Assembly: GCF_000619845.1 (NCBI RefSeq)
Contig: NZ_JHUX01000003.1
Location: 910,064 to 942,063, forward strand
DNA length: 32,000 bases
Source of the DNA: Alkanindiges illinoisensis DSM 15370
GTDB taxonomy: Bacteria; Pseudomonadota; Gammaproteobacteria; Pseudomonadales; Moraxellaceae
Direction of reading: 5' to 3'
Below the pieces are notes generated by a model. It made no database searches. It was given only the letters and a program-made list of their open reading frames with translations, and was not told the DNA's origin. Below, in pieces: positions 7,983-14,484 of this stretch. The number at the start of each line of letters is the position of its first letter. The stretch's first letter is position 1. A program made the position numbers and the translations under genes.

Positions 7983-8309
7983 ATGCGTCGCACGGAAGTT
8001 TATCAGGTTCGACTGGATGTCCATGAAAAAAAACAGGCCTTTGCCGTGTTTAAACAACTGGGTATTAGTCCTGCACAGGCTATTCGCTTATTTTTCCGTC
8101 AGGTGGTTGTGACTAGATCCATTCCATTTGCCATTGAGCAAGGTAACCATGAGCCGTCAGAAGCACCCAAAAAAGCCAGTCGAAAAACCGTTGCAACAAG
8201 TGAGCTAAGTCATTTATCAGATCAGGATGTTTTTGACCAGCTCAATGAACTATTACAGGATAACGGTAGCTTGAAAAATACGGACAAAAGCTCAGATAGC
8301 GATCAATAA
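7983..8309 (+). CDS. RelB/DinJ-family ribbon-helix-helix antitoxin-like protein with long acidic/Ser-rich C-terminal tail (no cognate toxin adjacent)
   Basis: The N-terminal ~55 aa (VYQVRLDVHEKKQAFAVFKQLGISPAQAIRLFFRQVVVTRSIPFAI) aligns by eye with DinJ (RIDEDLKNQA..GLT.S..VR..L..V..E..LPF). A strong SD AAAGAGG lies 7 nt upstream. The C-terminal ~50 aa is low-complexity. Confidence 0.6.
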   Translation: MRRTEVYQVRLDVHEKKQAFAVFKQLGISPAQAIRLFFRQVVVTRSIPFAIEQGNHEPSEAPKKASRKTVATSELSHLSDQDVFDQLNELLQDNGSLKNTDKSSDSDQ

Positions 8310-8470: not shown

Positions 8471-8719
8471 TTATTGATCTGTTGATTCAGCCGCTTTCAC
8501 CCGAATGCCATAACCATGAACGCGCAAGGTATTCAGTGCTTTAATGGCTTTAACCGCATCACGCCCATTTTCCATTTCCACAAAACCAAATCCCTTGGAT
8601 TTTCCAGTAGCCGCATCCAGCACTAACGTACAGCTTTTAATCTTGCCAAATGGTTTGAATAACGCTTCCAGCTCTGCTTCAGTGACACTACGCGCCAGAT
8701 TGCGGATTAATACTTTCAT
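8471..8719 (-). CDS. Small RNA-binding protein with a single RRM (RNP-1/RNP-2) domain
   Basis: MKVLIRNLARSVTEAELEALFKPFGKIKSCTLVLDAATGKSKGFGFVEMENGRDAVKAIKALNT: RNP-2 is VLIRNL and RNP-1 is KGFGFVEM. The start is placed at the ATG giving MKV; the track ORF extends 22 codons further upstream. Confidence 0.85.
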   Translation of the reverse strand: MKVLIRNLARSVTEAELEALFKPFGKIKSCTLVLDAATGKSKGFGFVEMENGRDAVKAIKALNTLRVHGYGIRVKAAESTDQ

Positions 8720-9106
8720 TTTACTGATCAACTTTTTAAAAAATAACAGACAGGCAAATGCAGGTTTATGCCAACACGTTGCCAAGATACTATTAGACCA
8801 TAAAACCCGTTAGTCCCCTAAACTATTTTTATTCAGACAGGAGGCTGTTTTCTATTTTTATTAATGGCCTTTTTAGCAAAATAAAAAGCTATATGTCGTA
8901 TCCCAACCTAATCACTTACTCTGCAAAGCTAATAGTTTGCCAGAACTGGCAAGCGCATAGCGGTTAGGTTAGCTTCTAGAATTGCAAAGCCAACACAGAT
9001 TGGCAGTCATATCCGTCCCTATTCAATACTCAACCATTACCTTAGTTTTCATATCTGATTTATTTGAATAGTCAAAGTAGTTTATAAAGAAATCTCAAAT
9101 ATAAAA

Positions 9107-9856: not shown

Positions 9857-9887
9857 TGACCAACTTGACCAACTTGACCAACTTGAC
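9857..9887 (+). repeat. 3.4 tandem copies of the 9-mer TGACCAACT
   Basis: ctGACCAACTTGACCAACTTGACCAACTTGACtag. Each unit recreates a TTGAC -35-like hexamer core. It lies in the divergent rsuA / antitoxin intergenic region. Confidence 0.95.
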
Positions 9888-9893
9888 TAGAAT
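9865..9893 (+). promoter_or_regulatory. Putative sigma70 promoter of the Phd/YefM-PIN operon, embedded in the 9-mer repeat
   Basis: -35 TTGACC (9865-9870), a 17-nt spacer, and -10 TAGAAT (9888-9893). Downstream come SD GGGAGA (9915-9920) and GTG 9928. Confidence 0.55.
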
Positions 9894-9927
9894 CAGCTCA
9901 TATATTGAGCTTTTGGGAGAGTCTATT

Positions 9928-10176
9928 GTGATTATTAATATTGCTGAAGCCAAAGCGCATCTTTCCGATTTAATCCAGCGTGCCTGCCAGGGTGAGGAGA
10001 TTATTATTGCCAAAAATAATCAGCCCTTGGTTGAACTGGTAGTGCATCAGCCTAAAAGCCAGATTAAATTTGGTTTATTGGAAAATGATACGGCAACACA
10101 GGATCTGCTCAAGATTATGGATGTTGATTTGGCAGACGATTTTTATAATAGCGACATTTTTCCTGAAACCAAATGA
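9928..10176 (+). CDS. Type II antitoxin, Phd/YefM family
   Basis: VIINIAEAKAHLSDLIQRACQGEEIIIAKNNQPLVELV is the typical Phd/YefM N-terminus. A GTG start sits behind a GGGAGA SD, and the stop overlaps the toxin start (ATGA at 10173-10176). The track ORF start at 9865 runs through the promoter repeat and is rejected. Confidence 0.8.
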   Translation: MIINIAEAKAHLSDLIQRACQGEEIIIAKNNQPLVELVVHQPKSQIKFGLLENDTATQDLLKIMDVDLADDFYNSDIFPETK

Positions 10177-10544
10177 ATATTCTCATTGATACGCATATTT
10201 TCCTATGGTTGCTGAAATCGCCAAAATTACTAACTACACAACAAGTAGAAACATTTAAAAACCCACAGAATCAGTTTTATTTGAGCAGTATTAGTATTGC
10301 TGAAATCATGATCAAAGTTTCTATTGGAAAACTGGTTGTAGACTTTGATCCGATTCAGGCAGCTACAGATAGTGGGCTTAAACTCTTGCCGTATCAAGGT
10401 ATTGACGCAGTTTCGCTTGTAAATTTACCGTTTCATCATAAAGACCCGTTTGATCGTATGCTGATTGCGCAAGCCAAAACCCAGAATATGCAAATGATGA
10501 GTAGTGATACAGTTTTTGGATTATATGGAAAGGTGATTGATTAA
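10173..10544 (+). CDS. Type II toxin, PIN-domain ribonuclease (VapC family)
   Basis: The acidic PIN residues occur in the expected order: ILIDTHIFLW (Asp), SSISIAEI (Glu), DPFDRMLIAQA (Asp), MSSD. The protein is 123 aa and translationally coupled to the upstream antitoxin. Confidence 0.85.
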   Translation: MNILIDTHIFLWLLKSPKLLTTQQVETFKNPQNQFYLSSISIAEIMIKVSIGKLVVDFDPIQAATDSGLKLLPYQGIDAVSLVNLPFHHKDPFDRMLIAQAKTQNMQMMSSDTVFGLYGKVID

Positions 10545-10560
10545 TCATCGAATAGACGGC

Positions 10561-10914
10561 TTAGTTCATCCTGATTGGTATTGTAATGGGGTCTTTTTTC
10601 CAGATTACTTGATTTATATTAAAATCAAAAAACTCAGCGATTTTTTGCTTTATATTTGACTCAAATAAGGTTTTATCCATATAAATAATGTGGTTATTTT
10701 GCTTGATTGAAAATAGTATCCTACCACGTGGAATTTGTTCATATTCCAAATTTTTAAGCTCAGGAAACTGTTTCTTTAATTCAAGATTTTCCCAAATACT
10801 CACATGATCAAAATTGCTATCGATTAAACCATTATAGCCTTTAAAACCTTGAGAGATGTCCTCAGGAATGCCAAGGACAGTGTTTTTATAAACCCAGAAG
10901 ATGCCTATGTTCAT
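10561..10914 (-). CDS. Hypothetical protein (117 aa), second gene of the low-GC cassette; no recognisable family
   Basis: The ATG at 10914 lies 1 nt after the stop (10916-10918) of the upstream gene, indicating translational coupling. There is no signal peptide, TM segment or catalytic motif I can recognise. Composition is very AT-rich. Confidence 0.6.
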   Translation of the reverse strand: MNIGIFWVYKNTVLGIPEDISQGFKGYNGLIDSNFDHVSIWENLELKKQFPELKNLEYEQIPRGRILFSIKQNNHIIYMDKTLFESNIKQKIAEFFDFNINQVIWKKDPITIPIRMN

Positions 10915-10915
10915 A

Positions 10916-11629
10916 TTAATGATTTTTAATTATTTCGTTCAATGCATCCAACGCTCTTTTTTTATAATTATTATTAAAACCACCAAAATAACTTGGATGA
11001 TAAAGCCTTAAACCTTTAACTCCTAAACAATCTATAACGGCCATTTCACGAATTGAATCAAAGTCATTTGCTTTCCTAAACTCAATACTAAGAAAATGAA
11101 ATTTGATATCATGATCACGGTTCGGACCAGTCATAAATATACATAAATCTGGCTTTATAATTTCGACCTCCTTAGCAACCACAGAAAAATACTTTCTTTC
11201 TAAATTTCTCGTTATAGGATCAACACCAGTTTCCTGATCAGGTTGGCCAATTTTTGAAATATTGTTCCATATATAAATAATGTCTAAGTTTTTTGTTTTT
11301 TCCATTTTTAAAATATTTTTCTGAAAAACACGAAATTTCTTCCAAAATGAACTCTTAGAATAACCATCATAAAAATTTTTCTGCCAAAAAAAACGATCAT
11401 ACCGATCCATTCCTTCAAAAATGGAATCCGTAAATCCTGAACTATCGTACCATCCTTTAGTTTCTTGACCAAAAATCATTACTTTATAATCAGCTCTTGC
11501 ATATGCATCTTCATCAATATTAATTAATAAAGGATTCGTATAAAATTTCTTATCAATTTTATTCAACTCCACAAGTATCTGTTCCCAATATTTATCGTAT
11601 AAATTAAATAGTTGCTTATTTATACTCAT
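10916..11629 (-). CDS. Hypothetical protein (237 aa) with uracil-DNA-glycosylase-superfamily-like motif order
   Basis: ATG 11629 is preceded by SD AAGGTGA; the track start at 11653 is a TTG. The ordered motifs are YKVMIFGQETKGW (position of UDG motif A, GQDPY/GEAPG), IIYIWNNISK (beta2 Asn), IKPDLCIFMTGPNRD (beta3) and LRLYHPSYFGG (position of motif B, HPSPLS). The fold assignment comes from visual pattern match only. Confidence 0.6.
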   Translation of the reverse strand: MSINKQLFNLYDKYWEQILVELNKIDKKFYTNPLLINIDEDAYARADYKVMIFGQETKGWYDSSGFTDSIFEGMDRYDRFFWQKNFYDGYSKSSFWKKFRVFQKNILKMEKTKNLDIIYIWNNISKIGQPDQETGVDPITRNLERKYFSVVAKEVEIIKPDLCIFMTGPNRDHDIKFHFLSIEFRKANDFDSIREMAVIDCLGVKGLRLYHPSYFGGFNNNYKKRALDALNEIIKNH

Positions 11630-11728
11630 ATTATTTCTCACCTTATCAAACAAATTTTAGAAATTGTAGGCATTTTCCCGAACAAACATTCTTTTAATTC
11701 TAATTCACGCGGCACAAAATGTCGTATT

Positions 11729-11766
11729 AAAAAACCCCACTCACTTGAGCAGGGCTTCTTTTTTAA
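11729..11766 (-). terminator. Probable acnB terminator (hairpin flanked by A- and T-runs)
   Basis: AAAAAACCCCACTCACTTGAGCAGGGCTTCTTTTTT: CCC/GGG and CTC/GAG stems with an internal loop. On the minus strand it is followed by GTTTTTT. Two further hairpins sit closer to the acnB stop (GAGAGGCAGTGCCTCTC at 11818-11834 and GGGCATAGCCC at about 11791-11801). Confidence 0.45.
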
Positions 11767-11844
11767 ATCAAACTTCTAGAACATTCAACTCGGGCATAGC
11801 CCTCGCCTTGCATTCGGGAGAGGCAGTGCCTCTCTATCCCTCAT

Positions 11845-14484
11845 TCAAGTCAACTGAGCAGCACTGATCTTTTTAGTATCAACCTTGCCCGCTTCAGCAG
11901 TGTATTCACCCATGCGATCGAAGTTCATGTAGCGATAGATTTCGCCAGCCATGCTGTCGATGTTCTGGGCATAACCCATGTATTCAGCAACAGTTGGCAA
12001 ACGACCCAATACCGCAGCAACAGAGGCCAACTCAGCAGAAGCCAGATAAACATTGGCACCCTGACCCAGACGGTTCGGGAAGTTACGGGTAGATGTAGAC
12101 ACACAAGTGGTATTTGGTGCTACACGTGCCTGGTTACCCATACACAGTGAACAGCCCGGCATTTCGGTACGCGCACCGGCACGACCATAAATGTTGTAAT
12201 AGCCTTCTTCCATCAACTGATGTTCGTCCATACGGGTTGGCGGAGCCAGCCACAGACGGGTTGATAAAGAACCACCCTCTACTTTTTCCAACAGCTTACC
12301 AGCAGCACGGAAGTGACCGATGTTAGTCATACAAGAACCGATGAACACTTCATCAATTTTTGCACCGGCAACATCAGACAACAGCTTGGCATCATCTGGA
12401 TCGTTCGGGCAGCACAATACTGGCTCAGTGATCGTGCTCAGGTCAATTTCATAAACCTTGGCATATTCAGCGTCAGCATCCGCTTTGATCAGGCTTGGGT
12501 TATCCAGCCATTTCTGCATATTTTCAACACGGCGTGCCATGGTACGCGCATCGCCATAACCTTCTGCAATCATCCACTTTAACATGGTCATGTTGGAGGT
12601 CAGGTATTCAGCAACAGCCTTCTCAGACAGGGTGATCGAACAGCCCGCAGCAGAACGCTCGGCAGACGCATCAGACAATTCGAATGCTTGTTCAACTGTC
12701 AGGTCGCCTTCATATTCGCTCAGGTCAATCTCAAGGATACGACCGTTGAAAATATTCTTCTTGCCTTTTTTCTCTACGGTTAAATCACCCGCTTGAATGG
12801 CAACGTAAGGAATGGCATGTACCAAATCACGCAGGGTGATACCAGGTTGCATTTTGCCCTTGAACTTCACCAGTACAGATTCAGGCATATCCAGTGGCAT
12901 TACGCCAGTCGCAGCAGCAAACGCCACCAGACCCGAACCTGCCGGGAAAGAAATACCAATTGGGAAACGGGTGTGAGAGTCACCGCCAGTACCAACGGTA
13001 TCAGGCAACAGCATGCGGTTTAACCAGGAGTGAATGATACCATCGCCGGGACGCAAGCTTACACCACCACGGTTCATGATGAAGTCTGGCAGCGTGTGGT
13101 GAGTCACCACGTCAACTGGCTTTGGATACGCGGCGGTATGACAGAAAGACTGCATCACCAGATCAGCAGAGAAACCCAAGCAAGCCAGGTCTTTCAGTTC
13201 ATCACGGGTCATTGGACCAGTAGTATCCTGAGAGCCAACAGTGGTCATTTTTGGTTCACAGTAAGTACCCGGACGCACGCCCTGACCTTCTGGTAAGCCA
13301 CAAGCGCGGCCAACCATTTTTTGTGCCTGAGTGAAGCCTTTACCAGTATCACCAGGTTGTACTGGGGTACGGAACAAAGTGGATGGCGCCAGACCCAAAG
13401 CTTCACGCGCCTTGGTGGTCAGGCCACGGCCAATGATCAGGTTAATACGGCCACCAGCACGAACTTCGTCCAGCAGAACCGGAGTTTTCAACTGGGATTC
13501 AGCAATTTGTTCGCCGTTTTTGAACGCAGTAACAGTTGCAGTTTCTTTGTTGATTTTCAGGGTAACTTCGTCACCCATATTCATGTTGCTAACATCAATC
13601 TCAACAGGCAGCGCACCGGCATCTTCCATGGTATTGAAGAAAATCGGCGCAATTTTGCTACCCAGACATACACCGCCATCTTTCTTGTTCGGGATATGCG
13701 GAATGTCATCACCAAAGAACCACAGTACAGAGTTGGTAGCAGACTTACGGCTAGAACCAGTACCAACCACGTCACCCACGTAGGCAACCTGATTACCTTT
13801 AGCAATCAGTTCCTTGATCTGGCTCATCGGGCCCACTTCGCCCGGTTTTTCAGGATTGATCCCTTCACGCACGTTTTTCAGCATGGCATTAGCATGCAAT
13901 GGAATATCTGGACGTGACCATGCATCCTGTGCAGGAGACAAGTCATCAGTGTTGGTTTCGCCAGTTACCTTGAAAACAGTAATCTTGATTTCTTCGGGTA
14001 CATCATCACGGCTGGTAAACCATTCGGCGTCTGCCCATGATTTTAACACCGCTTGTGCATTGGCATTACCAGCGGTAGCTTTATCAGCAACATCATGGAA
14101 TGCATCAAATACCAGTAGGGTTCTCTTGAGTGCTTCAGCAGCATCTGCACCCAGTTCGCTGTCATCCAGCAAGTCAACCAGTGGTGCAACGTTGTAGCCG
14201 CCCAGCATGGTTCCCAACAGGTAAACTGCACGCTTTTTGGTTACCAACGGAGAAGTGGCCTGACCTTTTGCAACAGCAGCCAGAAAAGCGGCTTTAACAT
14301 AAGCAGCCTGGTCTACACCAGCAGGAACACGATTTTCTAGCAAATCAACTAAAAATTGCTCTTCATGTGCCGGCGGGCTTTTTAACAATTCAACCAGTTG
14401 AGCAGTTTGAGTTTCGTCCAGCGGTTTTGGCGGGACACCCAGTGCAGCACGCTCAGCAACGTGTTGGCGGTAGGCTTCTAGCAC
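11845..14484 (-). CDS. acnB: Bifunctional aconitate hydratase 2 / 2-methylisocitrate dehydratase AcnB
   Basis: Near-colinear by eye with E. coli AcnB from (M)LEAYRQHVAERAALGVPPKPL to the C-terminus, including VFKVTGETNTDDLSPA, GDVVGTGSSRKSATNSVLWF, DTVGTGGDSHTRFP and CSLCMGNQARV. A GTG start at 14484 is preceded by AAGAGGAA. The track ORF extends to 14580. Confidence 0.97.
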   Translation of the reverse strand: MLEAYRQHVAERAALGVPPKPLDETQTAQLVELLKSPPAHEEQFLVDLLENRVPAGVDQAAYVKAAFLAAVAKGQATSPLVTKKRAVYLLGTMLGGYNVAPLVDLLDDSELGADAAEALKRTLLVFDAFHDVADKATAGNANAQAVLKSWADAEWFTSRDDVPEEIKITVFKVTGETNTDDLSPAQDAWSRPDIPLHANAMLKNVREGINPEKPGEVGPMSQIKELIAKGNQVAYVGDVVGTGSSRKSATNSVLWFFGDDIPHIPNKKDGGVCLGSKIAPIFFNTMEDAGALPVEIDVSNMNMGDEVTLKINKETATVTAFKNGEQIAESQLKTPVLLDEVRAGGRINLIIGRGLTTKAREALGLAPSTLFRTPVQPGDTGKGFTQAQKMVGRACGLPEGQGVRPGTYCEPKMTTVGSQDTTGPMTRDELKDLACLGFSADLVMQSFCHTAAYPKPVDVVTHHTLPDFIMNRGGVSLRPGDGIIHSWLNRMLLPDTVGTGGDSHTRFPIGISFPAGSGLVAFAAATGVMPLDMPESVLVKFKGKMQPGITLRDLVHAIPYVAIQAGDLTVEKKGKKNIFNGRILEIDLSEYEGDLTVEQAFELSDASAERSAAGCSITLSEKAVAEYLTSNMTMLKWMIAEGYGDARTMARRVENMQKWLDNPSLIKADADAEYAKVYEIDLSTITEPVLCCPNDPDDAKLLSDVAGAKIDEVFIGSCMTNIGHFRAAGKLLEKVEGGSLSTRLWLAPPTRMDEHQLMEEGYYNIYGRAGARTEMPGCSLCMGNQARVAPNTTCVSTSTRNFPNRLGQGANVYLASAELASVAAVLGRLPTVAEYMGYAQNIDSMAGEIYRYMNFDRMGEYTAEAGKVDTKKISAAQLT

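What the first reader, a model, noticed from the sequence alone, without database searches (positions are those of the whole stretch)
10561..11653. Very low-GC, translationally coupled two-gene cassette (UDG-fold-like protein + unknown 117-aa partner): candidate uncharacterised defence / DNA-surveillance module
Seen in sequence:
- Hand counts of several 60-nt lines give about 20-30% GC here, against about 48% in a sampled line of adjacent acnB. This argues for horizontal acquisition.
- The two minus-strand genes are coupled: stop TAA at 10916-10918, 1 nt, then ATG at 10914. The first gene has a good SD (AAGGTGA) before ATG 11629.
- The 237-aa protein carries, in the correct order and spacing, look-alikes of the four core elements of the uracil-DNA-glycosylase superfamily: KVMIFGQETKGW (motif A slot, with Glu-Thr where family 1 has Asp-Pro), IYIWNNISK (beta2 Asn), PDLCIFMTGPNRD (beta3) and LYHPSYFGG (motif B slot).
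- The 117-aa partner matches nothing I recognise.

Established knowledge: UDG-superfamily glycosylases have recently been shown to act as anti-phage effectors that excise modified phage bases (Brig1-type), and defence genes cluster with TA modules in small islands.

Inference: this pair may be a glycosylase-based defence or DNA-modification-sensing module, with the small protein acting as regulator, inhibitor or specificity partner.
Basis: partly seen in the sequence, partly recalled or inferred. Interest (0 to 1): 0.78.

Follow-up and report, generated by a model that had tools for sequence, protein, structure and literature searches.

The report
Glycosylase-like gene with promiscuous small partner
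A horizontally acquired two-gene cassette encodes an uncharacterised enzyme with the fold of uracil-DNA glycosylases, followed by a small protein of no known fold that elsewhere partners with several other DNA-cutting enzymes, which makes it a plausible but untested anti-phage module.

Summary
Two coupled minus-strand genes at 28-31% GC lie between acnB (49% GC) and a phd/vapC module. The 237-aa protein (A) has no family hit itself. Its homologues reach Pfam UDG above threshold, and its AlphaFold model (pLDDT 95.5) matches only uracil-DNA-glycosylase-superfamily structures. The look-alike catalytic residues (GQE, WNN, HP) are invariant. The family is rare, patchy and often next to WYL regulators and defence systems. 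It usually lacks the partner.

The partner (B) belongs to a large unannotated family (1063 representative clusters) with no fold match in the PDB. It is not glycosylase-specific. It is typically the last, coupled gene behind interchangeable DNA enzymes: four distinct UDG-like lineages, PD-(D/E)xK nucleases (one is PADLOC candidate PDC-S26, also downstream of acnB) and MBL hydrolases. It also sits on about 59 Acinetobacter plasmids.

In this window B carries a 1-nt deletion that removes its invariant His-Tyr motif.

Best reading: A is a Brig-like defence glycosylase that needs no partner, and B is a modular accessory. This is computational only. Activity, target base, B's role and any relation to Brig2 are untested.

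The parts
10916..11629 (-). Gene A: 237-aa protein of a distinct, uncharacterised branch of the uracil-DNA-glycosylase (UDG) superfamily. Invariant residues are G54 Q55 E56, N123, K126, E154, P160, F165, G168, H211 and P212.
   Evidence: ORF and sequence. Homologues and invariant columns. Pfam UDG hits in relatives. AlphaFold model with pLDDT 95.5. Foldseek against PDB returns UDG superfamily only.
11638..11644 (-). Shine-Dalgarno-like AAGGTGA, 8 nt upstream of ATG 11629.
   Evidence: Read directly from the sequence.
11697..11725 (-). Weak sigma-70-like promoter candidate (ACGACA-17-TAGAAT) upstream of gene A.
   Evidence: The number of such sites in the region is not above the shuffled expectation, so this is a lead only.
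10561..10914 (-). Gene B as it reads in the window: 117 aa, translationally coupled to A (TAA, 1 nt, ATG). It belongs to a large unannotated family of about 125-aa proteins.
   Evidence: Model of the intact homologue P0122 has pLDDT 89. No PDB fold match.
10541..10593 (-). 3' end of gene B. A 1-nt deletion near 10588-10590 shifts the frame. The ancestral 124-aa frame ends at TAA 10543-10541 and encodes the invariant D-x-H-Y motif.
   Evidence: DNA alignment with L005 and L001. Protein alignments A2 and A3.
10540..11791 (-). Extent of the mobile cassette. This block is 92% identical to the cassette in a related MAG, whereas the adjacent acnB is only 82% identical. Homology stops exactly at the restored stop codon of B.
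   Evidence: blastn of the window against L001 and L005. Composition.
9865..10544 (+). Neighbouring phd/yefM-like antitoxin plus VapC (PIN) toxin, convergent with B. It is part of the same low-GC island but absent from the related MAG, which has a RhuM-family gene there instead.
   Evidence: ORFs. PIN domain in the L005 orthologue, E 9e-12. RhuM in L001.

Best explanation
Gene A encodes a monofunctional DNA glycosylase of a previously undescribed branch of the UDG superfamily. It is carried on a small horizontally transferred cassette in a variable hotspot downstream of acnB.

Inferred mechanism: A flips a pyrimidine-type base into a UDG-like pocket. That pocket is built from the GQE-T-x-G-W loop (E56 activates water in the slot of Asp/Glu in UNG and family 4), the beta2 WNN asparagines (base recognition) and H211-P212 (motif B, leaving-group stabilisation). 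Excision creates abasic sites. The most likely biological role is Brig-like anti-phage defence against DNA that carries a non-canonical or modified base. A works on its own in most genomes.

Gene B is a modular accessory protein of a separate, widespread family. That family is recruited as the last, translationally coupled gene behind interchangeable DNA-attacking enzymes. Most likely it binds DNA or a modified or damaged base, or strips a decoration, and so tunes what the upstream enzyme attacks. In this strain B is frameshifted, so the cassette probably runs on A alone.

Shown: the fold, the conserved residues, the accessory status and the partner-swapping. Inferred: catalysis, substrate, the defence role and any function of B.
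For: UDG superfamily:
- 23 of 55 relatives hit PF03167, six above the gathering score.
- The model has pLDDT 95.5 and pTM 0.92.
- All 11 Foldseek PDB matches with E<=1e-3, and the 38 best-ranked matches, are family 4 UDG, UdgX, TDG, SMUG1 or MUG. These include 4ZBY, the same best structural neighbour reported for Brig1 (PMC11078745).
- The catalytic-slot residues are invariant in 55 sequences at 27-56% identity.

Accessory and mobile:
- GC is 28-31% against 49% for acnB.
- The cassette is 92% identical while the flanking gene is 82% identical.
- Only 57 of 185,579 GTDB species gave a hit, spread over at least six phyla.
- Pseudogenised copies exist.
- Neither gene is found in 50,697 phage genomes or in IMG/VR.

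Defence context of the A family:
- A WYL/WCX regulator lies within 5 kb in 12 of 55 loci, six of them directly adjacent.
- Neighbours match PADLOC type I restriction enzymes, Gabija, LeoA/BC, IetA, mad3 and PDC candidates.
- One homologue sits beside a SIR2-pAgo pair.

Precedent: Brig1, Brig2 and the Brig3-BapA operon.

B is modular:
- It is coupled (4-nt overlap to 37-nt gap) to A-type UDG, PDDEXK_4 (PDC-S26, E 3e-65), PD-(D/E)xK-like proteins behind MBL genes, an AAA ATPase, a DNA methyltransferase and a metallophosphatase.
- UDG-like genes lie beside B in 10 of 49 dereplicated B clusters, although the A family is very rare.
- Four distinct UDG-like lineages are involved.
Against: - No activity, substrate or phage phenotype is known for any member of either family.
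- The window protein itself scores nothing against Pfam, NCBIfam, PADLOC or PHROGs, and no PDB sequence matches its profile.
- Foldseek TM-scores are modest (0.35-0.5).
- Glu-Thr replaces the Asp-Pro or Ala-Pro of motif A, so catalysis is an assumption.
- I did not measure the defence association of neighbours against a background rate.
- WYL regulators also control DNA-damage responses (DriD, PafBC), which fits a repair role equally well.
- Six of seven integron UDG-like proteins tested by Getz et al. gave no defence phenotype.
- B has no detectable fold relative, so its role is a guess.
- My sample of B loci was seeded from Moraxellaceae-type sequences and is therefore biased.
Confidence: 0.5

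Rival explanations
1. A is an accessory DNA-repair glycosylase, a back-up UDG/MUG-type enzyme for uracil or a damaged pyrimidine. It would be induced with the DNA-damage response rather than acting against phages. B would be an unrelated or repair-associated small protein.
For: All structural neighbours are repair enzymes. The most frequent conserved neighbour is a WYL/WCX regulator, a class that includes the DNA-damage regulators DriD and PafBC. One homologue sits next to umuDC.
Against: Distribution is extremely patchy (57 of 185,579 species). GC is very low and the gene sits at a swap hotspot next to TA and RhuM genes. Several loci carry defence systems as neighbours. Copies have decayed. 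Housekeeping glycosylases are rarely near mobile elements: 2% for UNG against 41% for Brig2 in Getz et al., table S8.
Confidence: 0.2
2. The pair is a toxin-antitoxin-like or abortive-infection module. A would be a genotoxic glycosylase and B its neutralising antitoxin or immunity protein, co-translated to keep the stoichiometry.
For: The two genes are tightly coupled, with B downstream. The cassette lies next to other TA modules, and on plasmids B is followed by phd-doc. The upstream partners of B are all potentially genotoxic enzymes.
Against: - A lacks B in about 50 of 57 genome loci.
- Here B is frameshifted while A is intact, and the strain is viable.
- One conserved 125-aa protein is unlikely to bind and inhibit UDG, PD-(D/E)xK, MBL and AAA folds alike.
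- B occurs alone on many plasmids.
- B has conserved Asp, His, Arg and aromatic residues more typical of a ligand pocket.
Confidence: 0.1
3. The cassette serves mobile elements rather than the host. It would be a counter-defence or self-repair kit that removes damaged or enzymatically marked bases (for example deaminated or ADP-ribosylated ones) inflicted by host immunity. B would be an anti-defence factor.
For: - B is on about 59 Acinetobacter plasmids, many of them small and mobilisable, in a block with a Macro-domain gene and another UDG-like gene.
- B domains are fused to a polyvalent-protein kinase, a PTP-like phosphatase motif and an FtsK-gamma domain.
- An ArdC-N gene lies nearby in one locus.
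Against: In Alkanindiges the cassette is chromosomal, with no mobility genes in the window. A and B are absent from phage collections. The A family is almost absent from plasmids, with 1 record. Other partners of B match candidate host defence genes, and one module lies beside McrBC.
Confidence: 0.12
4. The cassette is a decaying passenger with no current function in this strain.
For: B is frameshifted here. A is split into two ORFs in a related lineage.
Against: A retains every invariant residue and a good SD. The cassette is 91-92% conserved in two other genomes, both with intact B. The single-base change could be an assembly error.
Confidence: 0.08

Closest known systems
Brig1 (anti-phage alpha-glucosyl-hmC DNA glycosylase; Hossain et al. 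2024, PMC11078745)
   Same: A single protein of about 240-260 aa with a UDG-superfamily fold. Family 4 UDG structures such as 4ZBY are the nearest structural matches for both. Both lie in defence-island-like, TA-rich contexts and are annotated as hypothetical.
   Different: Brig1 has only 42 homologues, mostly in Actinobacteria, and its functional residues are Y121 and E147. The A family has the GQE / WNN / HP signature and occurs mainly in Gammaproteobacteria and Bacteroidota.
Brig2 (integron-borne UDG-like defence glycosylase against 5-substituted thymidine phages; Getz et al. 2025, bioRxiv 10.1101/2025.10.29.685425)
   Same: A UDG-like fold found by structure rather than by sequence. It lies in A/T-rich regions near mobile elements and defence genes and is spread over Proteobacteria, Bacteroidota and Firmicutes.
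   Different: Identity or homology is untested, because the sequence and accession tables are truncated in the held supplement. Brig2 homologues are dominated by Pseudomonadota and Bacillota with few Bacteroidota, whereas the A family is rich in Bacteroidota. No integron features were seen in the window.
Brig3-BapA operon (5hmC glycosylase plus accessory deglucosylase; Mejia-Pitta et al. 2026, bioRxiv 10.64898/2026.02.25.707755)
   Same: A two-gene operon with overlapping or coupled ORFs. A UDG-superfamily glycosylase comes first and a protein of unknown function second. The glycosylase works alone and the second gene only widens the range.
   Different: BapA is at least 252 aa and has two ASCH beta-barrels. 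B is about 125 aa and has no ASCH/PUA match in Foldseek. Brig3 uses N50-P51-S52/E55/D127/N225, which is not the GQE/WNN/HP pattern. B also pairs with nucleases and other enzymes.
Family 4 UDG (UDGa), UdgX, and the MUG/TDG and SMUG1 families of the UDG superfamily
   Same: The same alpha/beta fold and order of elements: beta1 with motif A, beta2 with Asn, beta3, and motif B with His.
   Different: TM-scores are only 0.35-0.5 at 9-15% identity. There are no Fe-S cysteines. Motif A reads GQET(K/N)GW instead of GEAPG, GINPG or GQDPY. A helical insertion of about 60 residues follows motif A. No PDB sequence is detectable with family profiles.
PADLOC candidate PDC-S26 (PDDEXK_4 nuclease-family single-gene defence candidate)
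   Same: In Acinetobacter parvus a PDC-S26 protein occupies the position of A. It lies downstream of acnB and overlaps the start of a B-family gene by 4 nt.
   Different: It has a different fold and chemistry (nuclease rather than glycosylase). PADLOC treats it as a single-gene candidate and has no model for B.

Membership tests
UDG superfamily (Pfam PF03167 / UDG fold) | Profile-HMM match to PF03167 | tested here: inconclusive
   The window protein gives no Pfam hit at E<=10. By contrast, 23 of 55 aligned homologues match at E<=0.01. Six of them exceed the 24.3-bit gathering score: P0116 34.5, P0115 31.1, P0107 and P0112 26.6, P0070 25.6 and P0062 25.5. Membership therefore follows by transitive homology.
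UDG superfamily (Pfam PF03167 / UDG fold) | Four-stranded parallel beta-sheet alpha/beta fold shared with solved UDGs | tested here: met
   The model has pLDDT 95.5. All 11 Foldseek PDB matches with E<=1e-3 and the 38 best-ranked matches are UDG-superfamily enzymes: 1ui0/1ui1 at E 1e-5 and probability 1.00, then 4zby, UdgX, TDG, SMUG1 and MUG.
UDG superfamily (Pfam PF03167 / UDG fold) | Motif A after beta1, an Asn on beta2 and a motif B His, all conserved | tested here: met
   G54-Q55-E56, N123 and H211-P212 are invariant, and T57, W60, W121 and N122 are at least 90% conserved in 55 sequences. Their positions match beta1 (48-54), beta2 (117-123) and the loop after strand 204-209. Equivalence to the catalytic residues of solved UDGs is inferred, not superposed.
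UDG superfamily (Pfam PF03167 / UDG fold) | N-glycosidic bond cleavage on DNA | not testable with these tools
   This needs a glycosylase assay.
Family 1 UNG | Significant sequence similarity, including GQDPYH and HPSPLS | tested here: not met
No PDB UNG sequence is found with the profiles.
Brig1 / Brig2 / Brig3 defence glycosylases | Sequence homology to the characterised protein | not testable with these tools
   The sequences are not held. No Brig structure appeared among the listed PDB matches. The supplement tables with Brig2 homologues are truncated and name none of the genera that carry A.
Brig1 / Brig2 / Brig3 defence glycosylases | Protection against phages with modified bases | not testable with these tools
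   This needs plaque assays.
Brig3-BapA type two-gene system | The second gene is an ASCH (PUA-like) double beta-barrel hydrolase | tested here: not met
   The B model (pLDDT 89) has no PDB match better than E 0.09, and no ASCH/EVE/PUA entry appears in the top 50. Pfam gives no hit for B-family members. BapA is at least 252 aa against about 125 aa for B.
Known defence systems (PADLOC-DB 2.0) | Match to a model of a known or candidate system | tested here: not met
   Neither A nor B matches any model at E<=10. The database predates the Brig papers.
Type II toxin-antitoxin pair | Obligate co-occurrence of the two genes | tested here: not met
   B is found beside A in only 4 of 57 genome loci, all Moraxellaceae. 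B is coupled to many other genes or stands alone. B is frameshifted here while A is intact.

The most novel reading that the evidence does not exclude
The B family would be the constant component of a new class of modular two- or three-gene immune systems. In these, one small protein of a previously unseen fold acts as a reader or remover of modified or damaged DNA bases, or as a sensor. It is combined with interchangeable DNA-attacking effectors: several UDG-like glycosylase lineages, PD-(D/E)xK nucleases and MBL nucleases. Whole effector modules would be swapped in front of it at hotspots such as the one downstream of acnB. The A family would then be a new branch of defence glycosylases with a base specificity of its own.
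Probability: 0.25. Interest if true: 0.8.

Novelty: new variant of a known kind. Interest (0 to 1): 0.6.

Why it matters
Defence glycosylases (Brig1-3, Dag) were only discovered in 2024-2026, each by functional screening or structure mining. Here a further UDG-fold family is defined with a clear signature (GQE-T-x-G-W, WNN-x-x-K, HP), about 120 sequence clusters and defence-island neighbours, so it can be tested directly.

The partner family may matter more. It has over a thousand representative clusters, is missing from Pfam, NCBIfam and PADLOC, and has no fold relative. It sits recurrently as the coupled tail gene behind different DNA-damaging enzymes, including a PADLOC defence candidate. 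If it is a specificity or sensing subunit, it would explain how unrelated effectors are aimed at foreign DNA. It would also give a marker for finding new effectors. It is common on Acinetobacter plasmids, which adds clinical relevance.

Tried and rejected
- Direct family searches of both window proteins (Pfam, PADLOC, NCBIfam, PHROGs) gave nothing usable.
- PDB sequence searches gave only chance hits. I tried single sequences and three profiles (A1, A3, A6). The best lead was a weak mitochondrial-SSB match for B at E 0.27, which I treat as a lead only.
- The DUF7726 hits in five A relatives are below the gathering score and cover only the helical insert, so I disregarded them.
- hhalign against E. 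coli Ung was not significant.
- I could not establish whether A is a Brig2 relative. The held supplement is truncated and names none of the relevant genera.
- The search for related loci with the broad B alignments A3 and A4 failed for lack of a conserved stretch. The narrower A2 alignment worked, but it biases the sample towards Moraxellaceae-type B.
- The viral scans (IMG/VR) and GenBank phage searches for A and B were negative.
- I looked for a conserved small neighbour of A outside Moraxellaceae and found none. The flanking 120-156-aa ORFs are unrelated to each other and to B.
- I found no integron or attC-like element, no flanking repeats beyond chance, no tRNA and no Rfam match around the cassette.
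- No terminator was called, and the promoter matches are not above the shuffled expectation.
- One look-up (P0133, Alkanindiges hydrocarboniclasticus) was not on record.
Full report
**1. What is in the window**

Two minus-strand ORFs occupy 11629-10561.
- Gene A starts at ATG 11629 and is preceded by AAGGTGA at 11644-11638. The longer TTG-initiated ORF from 11653 is not supported, because homologues begin M-S-I-N.
- A ends at TAA 10918-10916. One base later, ATG 10914 opens gene B.
- GC is 28.3% for A and 30.8% for B. acnB is 49.4% and the window as a whole 44.4%. This is the lowest-GC stretch in the window.
- On the other side lies a phd/yefM-like antitoxin plus a PIN-domain VapC (PIN E 9e-12 in the orthologue), then rsuA.

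Relatives are 124 aa. The window reads GACCC-CATTAC where two related genomes read GAyCCACACTAC. This converts ...KKDPHYNTNQDELSRLFDD* into ...KKDPITIPIRMN* and removes the invariant His-Tyr. The ancestral frame would stop at 10543-10541. The deposited genome annotation carries the same 117-aa product (P0121), so I cannot tell a real mutation from an assembly error.

**2. Gene A has a UDG-superfamily fold**

The protein itself hits nothing in Pfam, PADLOC, NCBIfam or PHROGs, and nothing in PDB by sequence. It does have 120 homologue clusters.
- Of 55 aligned members, 23 match Pfam UDG (PF03167) and six exceed the gathering score.
- An AlphaFold model built on this alignment is very confident (pLDDT 95.5, pTM 0.92).
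- In Foldseek against the PDB, all 11 matches with E<=1e-3 and the 38 best-ranked matches are UDG-superfamily enzymes. These are Thermus and Sulfolobus family 4 UDG (E 1e-5, probability 1.0), UdgX, TDG, SMUG1 and MUG.
- TM-scores are only 0.35-0.5 at 9-15% identity, so this is a remote, separate branch.

They sit after beta1, on beta2 and after the last strand, as in UDGs. Their catalytic equivalence is inferred. Similarity to family 1 Ung is not significant.

**3. Gene A is accessory and usually stands alone**

- A scan of one genome per species found the A family in 57 of 185,579 species. The hits span Gammaproteobacteria, Bacteroidota, Bacillota, Verrucomicrobiota, Campylobacterota and others.
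- B is present beside A only in Moraxellaceae: Alkanindiges, a Red Sea MAG where a second UDG-like paralogue lies between the two genes, and Aquirhabdus, where the genes are divergent.
- The only recurrent neighbour of A is a WYL/WCX regulator. It lies within 5 kb in 12 of 55 loci and is adjacent in six.
- Other neighbours match PADLOC models for type I restriction enzymes, Gabija, LeoA/BC, IetA, mad3 and several PDC candidates.
- A Hymenobacter plasmid copy lies beside SIR2 and Piwi genes.
- Small ORFs flanking A in other Gammaproteobacteria are unrelated to each other and to B.
- A is absent from GenBank phages and from IMG/VR at the sensitivity of the searches.

**4. The acnB hotspot**

The window is collinear at about 91% identity with another A. 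illinoisensis strain. In a more distant MAG, acnB is 82% identical but the cassette (11791-10540) is 92% identical, and homology ends exactly at the stop codon of B. Beyond that point the MAG has a RhuM-family gene instead of the TA pair.
- In Acinetobacter parvus the same position downstream of acnB holds a 426-aa PDDEXK_4 protein that overlaps a B gene by 4 nt. That protein matches the PADLOC candidate PDC-S26 at E 3e-65.
- In another lineage acnB is followed by a gene A split into two ORFs and then an intact B.

The cassette is therefore not core.

**5. Gene B**

A profile search of 1.84 billion representatives found 1063 clusters at E<=1e-3, mostly 110-135 aa. None has a Pfam match. The model of an intact homologue is confident (pLDDT 89). 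It has no PDB fold match (best E 0.09) and one BFVD match to an uncharacterised metagenomic siphovirus protein.

Conserved residues are G-I-F-W at the N-terminus, D32, H37, W41, Y58, P-R63-G-R65, Y78-x-D80, F95-F96, W105 and D108-x-H110-Y111. That pattern fits a ligand or active-site pocket better than a simple inhibitor.

Neighbourhoods show B as the last gene, with a 4-nt overlap to a 37-nt gap, behind very different enzymes (and 77 metagenome loci):
- A-type UDG-like proteins;
- PDDEXK_4 nucleases;
- MBL hydrolase followed by a PD-(D/E)xK-like protein (D...E[IL]K motif), once beside McrBC;
- a 670-aa AAA ATPase;
- an N6/N4 DNA methyltransferase and metallophosphoesterases.

B domains are also fused to a polyvalent-protein kinase, an FtsK-gamma domain and a PTP-like HCxxGxxR segment.

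After dereplication into 49 B clusters, 8 have an A-family gene adjacent, 2 have another UDG-like gene and 7 have PDDEXK_4.

Counting the GYNPGG-type UDG that lies convergent with AAA-B modules (Pfam UDG 26.5 bits), four different UDG-like lineages lie next to B. This is far more than the rarity of these proteins would predict. The sample was seeded from Moraxellaceae-type B sequences, however, and I computed no background rate.

B is also on 72 PLSDB plasmids, 59 of them from Acinetobacter. It often has its own upstream gap there and is followed by phd-doc.

**6. Interpretation**

A is best read as a stand-alone DNA glycosylase of a new UDG branch that moves horizontally among defence-rich islands. 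That is Brig-like. Brig1, Brig2 and Brig3 are all UDG-superfamily enzymes found in such settings, and Brig1's nearest solved structure (4ZBY) is also among A's best matches.

The Brig3-BapA operon shows that a coupled second gene can widen a glycosylase's range without being required. B is not a BapA homologue: BapA is at least 252 aa with two ASCH barrels, and B has no such fold.

B also serves nucleases and other enzymes, is dispensable for most A genes, and is broken here while A is intact. I therefore reject the idea of a dedicated inhibitor or antitoxin. I favour a modular accessory that binds or processes DNA or a modified base, but this is the weakest step.

The rivals are listed with their weights:
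- a damage-inducible repair glycosylase, since WYL regulators also govern DNA-damage responses;
- a toxin-antitoxin-like pair;
- a mobile-element counter-defence or repair kit;
- a decaying passenger.

**7. Novelty and limits**

Neither family is in Pfam (2025), NCBIfam (2026) or PADLOC (2023). Whether A belongs to the Brig2 family could not be tested here. The taxonomic profiles differ, but that is not decisive. Everything beyond fold, conservation and context is inference, and no member of either family has been assayed.

I score the finding as a new variant of a known kind (a glycosylase-based defence candidate with an accessory gene), with interest 0.6. The modular B family is the part most likely to yield something new.

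Noticed in passing
window 10541-10593 (minus strand): Gene B carries a 1-nt deletion relative to two related genomes. It truncates the protein to 117 aa and deletes the invariant D-x-H-Y motif. The intact frame would end at 10543-10541, overlapping the convergent vapC stop at 10544.
   Followed up: yes
L070:3289-4001, L071, L072, L074, L077: In another Moraxellaceae-type lineage, gene A downstream of acnB is split into two ORFs (108 aa plus 129-148 aa, both matching the A profile). The coupled B gene remains intact, which is the reverse of the decay pattern in the window.
   Followed up: partly
L061:3724-5345 (Acinetobacter parvus) compared with window 10540-11845: The site downstream of acnB is a swap hotspot in Moraxellaceae. 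It holds A+B+TA, A+B+RhuM, or a PDDEXK_4 nuclease-family protein (PADLOC PDC-S26, E 3e-65) overlapping B by 4 nt.
   Followed up: partly
L153:1884-4091 (A. baumannii plasmid pOCUAc18-5) and about 17 other Acinetobacter plasmids: A conserved plasmid block. B, phd and doc(Fic) run convergent with an operon that contains another UDG-like protein (232 aa; GYEWGW...HPSS; Pfam UDG E 0.006) followed by a Macro-domain protein. 17 of 20 Acinetobacter plasmids with this UDG-like gene also carry B within 1.2-2.5 kb. Brig1 and Brig3 are likewise reported next to ADP-ribosyl glycohydrolases.
   Followed up: partly
L064:2965-6171, L156, L157, L158: A recurrent module. A 670-705-aa AAA ATPase is followed after about 22 nt by B, convergent with a GYNPGG-type UDG-superfamily protein (234 aa). 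Neighbours include a methyltransferase-HNH fusion, ParE, ArdC-N and a WYL-WCX regulator.
   Followed up: partly
L069:1516-4369, L068:2472-4366, L160:1914-4366: Three-gene modules of an MBL-fold hydrolase, then a 240-390-aa protein with a PD-(D/E)xK-like D...E[IL]K motif and no Pfam hit, then B. One lies beside McrBC, one behind a WYL regulator and one between transposases.
   Followed up: no
L122:421-1407, P0189, P0254: B domains fused to other domains: a PTP-like HCVGGRGRTG phosphatase motif, a Kinase-PolyVal domain (E 1e-28) and an FtsK-gamma winged helix.
   Followed up: partly
window 9857-9887: A perfect 9-nt tandem repeat, TGACCAACT x 3.4 (three TTGAC boxes), in the intergenic region just upstream of the phd/yefM-like antitoxin gene. 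It may be an operator or promoter array.
   Followed up: no
L012:5317-5907 and L093:3383-3940 (also L110-L112): A 185-196-aa protein with a shared 'RWNGS...G.P...WFIIP' motif lies directly beside divergent A-like genes in unrelated contigs. It may be a second recurrent partner of the UDG-like family.
   Followed up: no
L161:6001-9917 (Hymenobacter monticola plasmid): An A-family homologue lies between umuDC and a SIR2 plus Piwi-domain (short pAgo) pair, with a DNA methyltransferase beyond.
   Followed up: no
window 7983-8309 and 8471-8785: A RelB/DinJ-like small ORF with no obvious adjacent toxin, and an RRM-type RNA-binding protein gene, lie in the moderately low-GC stretch (35-40%) left of rsuA. 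I identified both by eye and did not test them.
   Followed up: no
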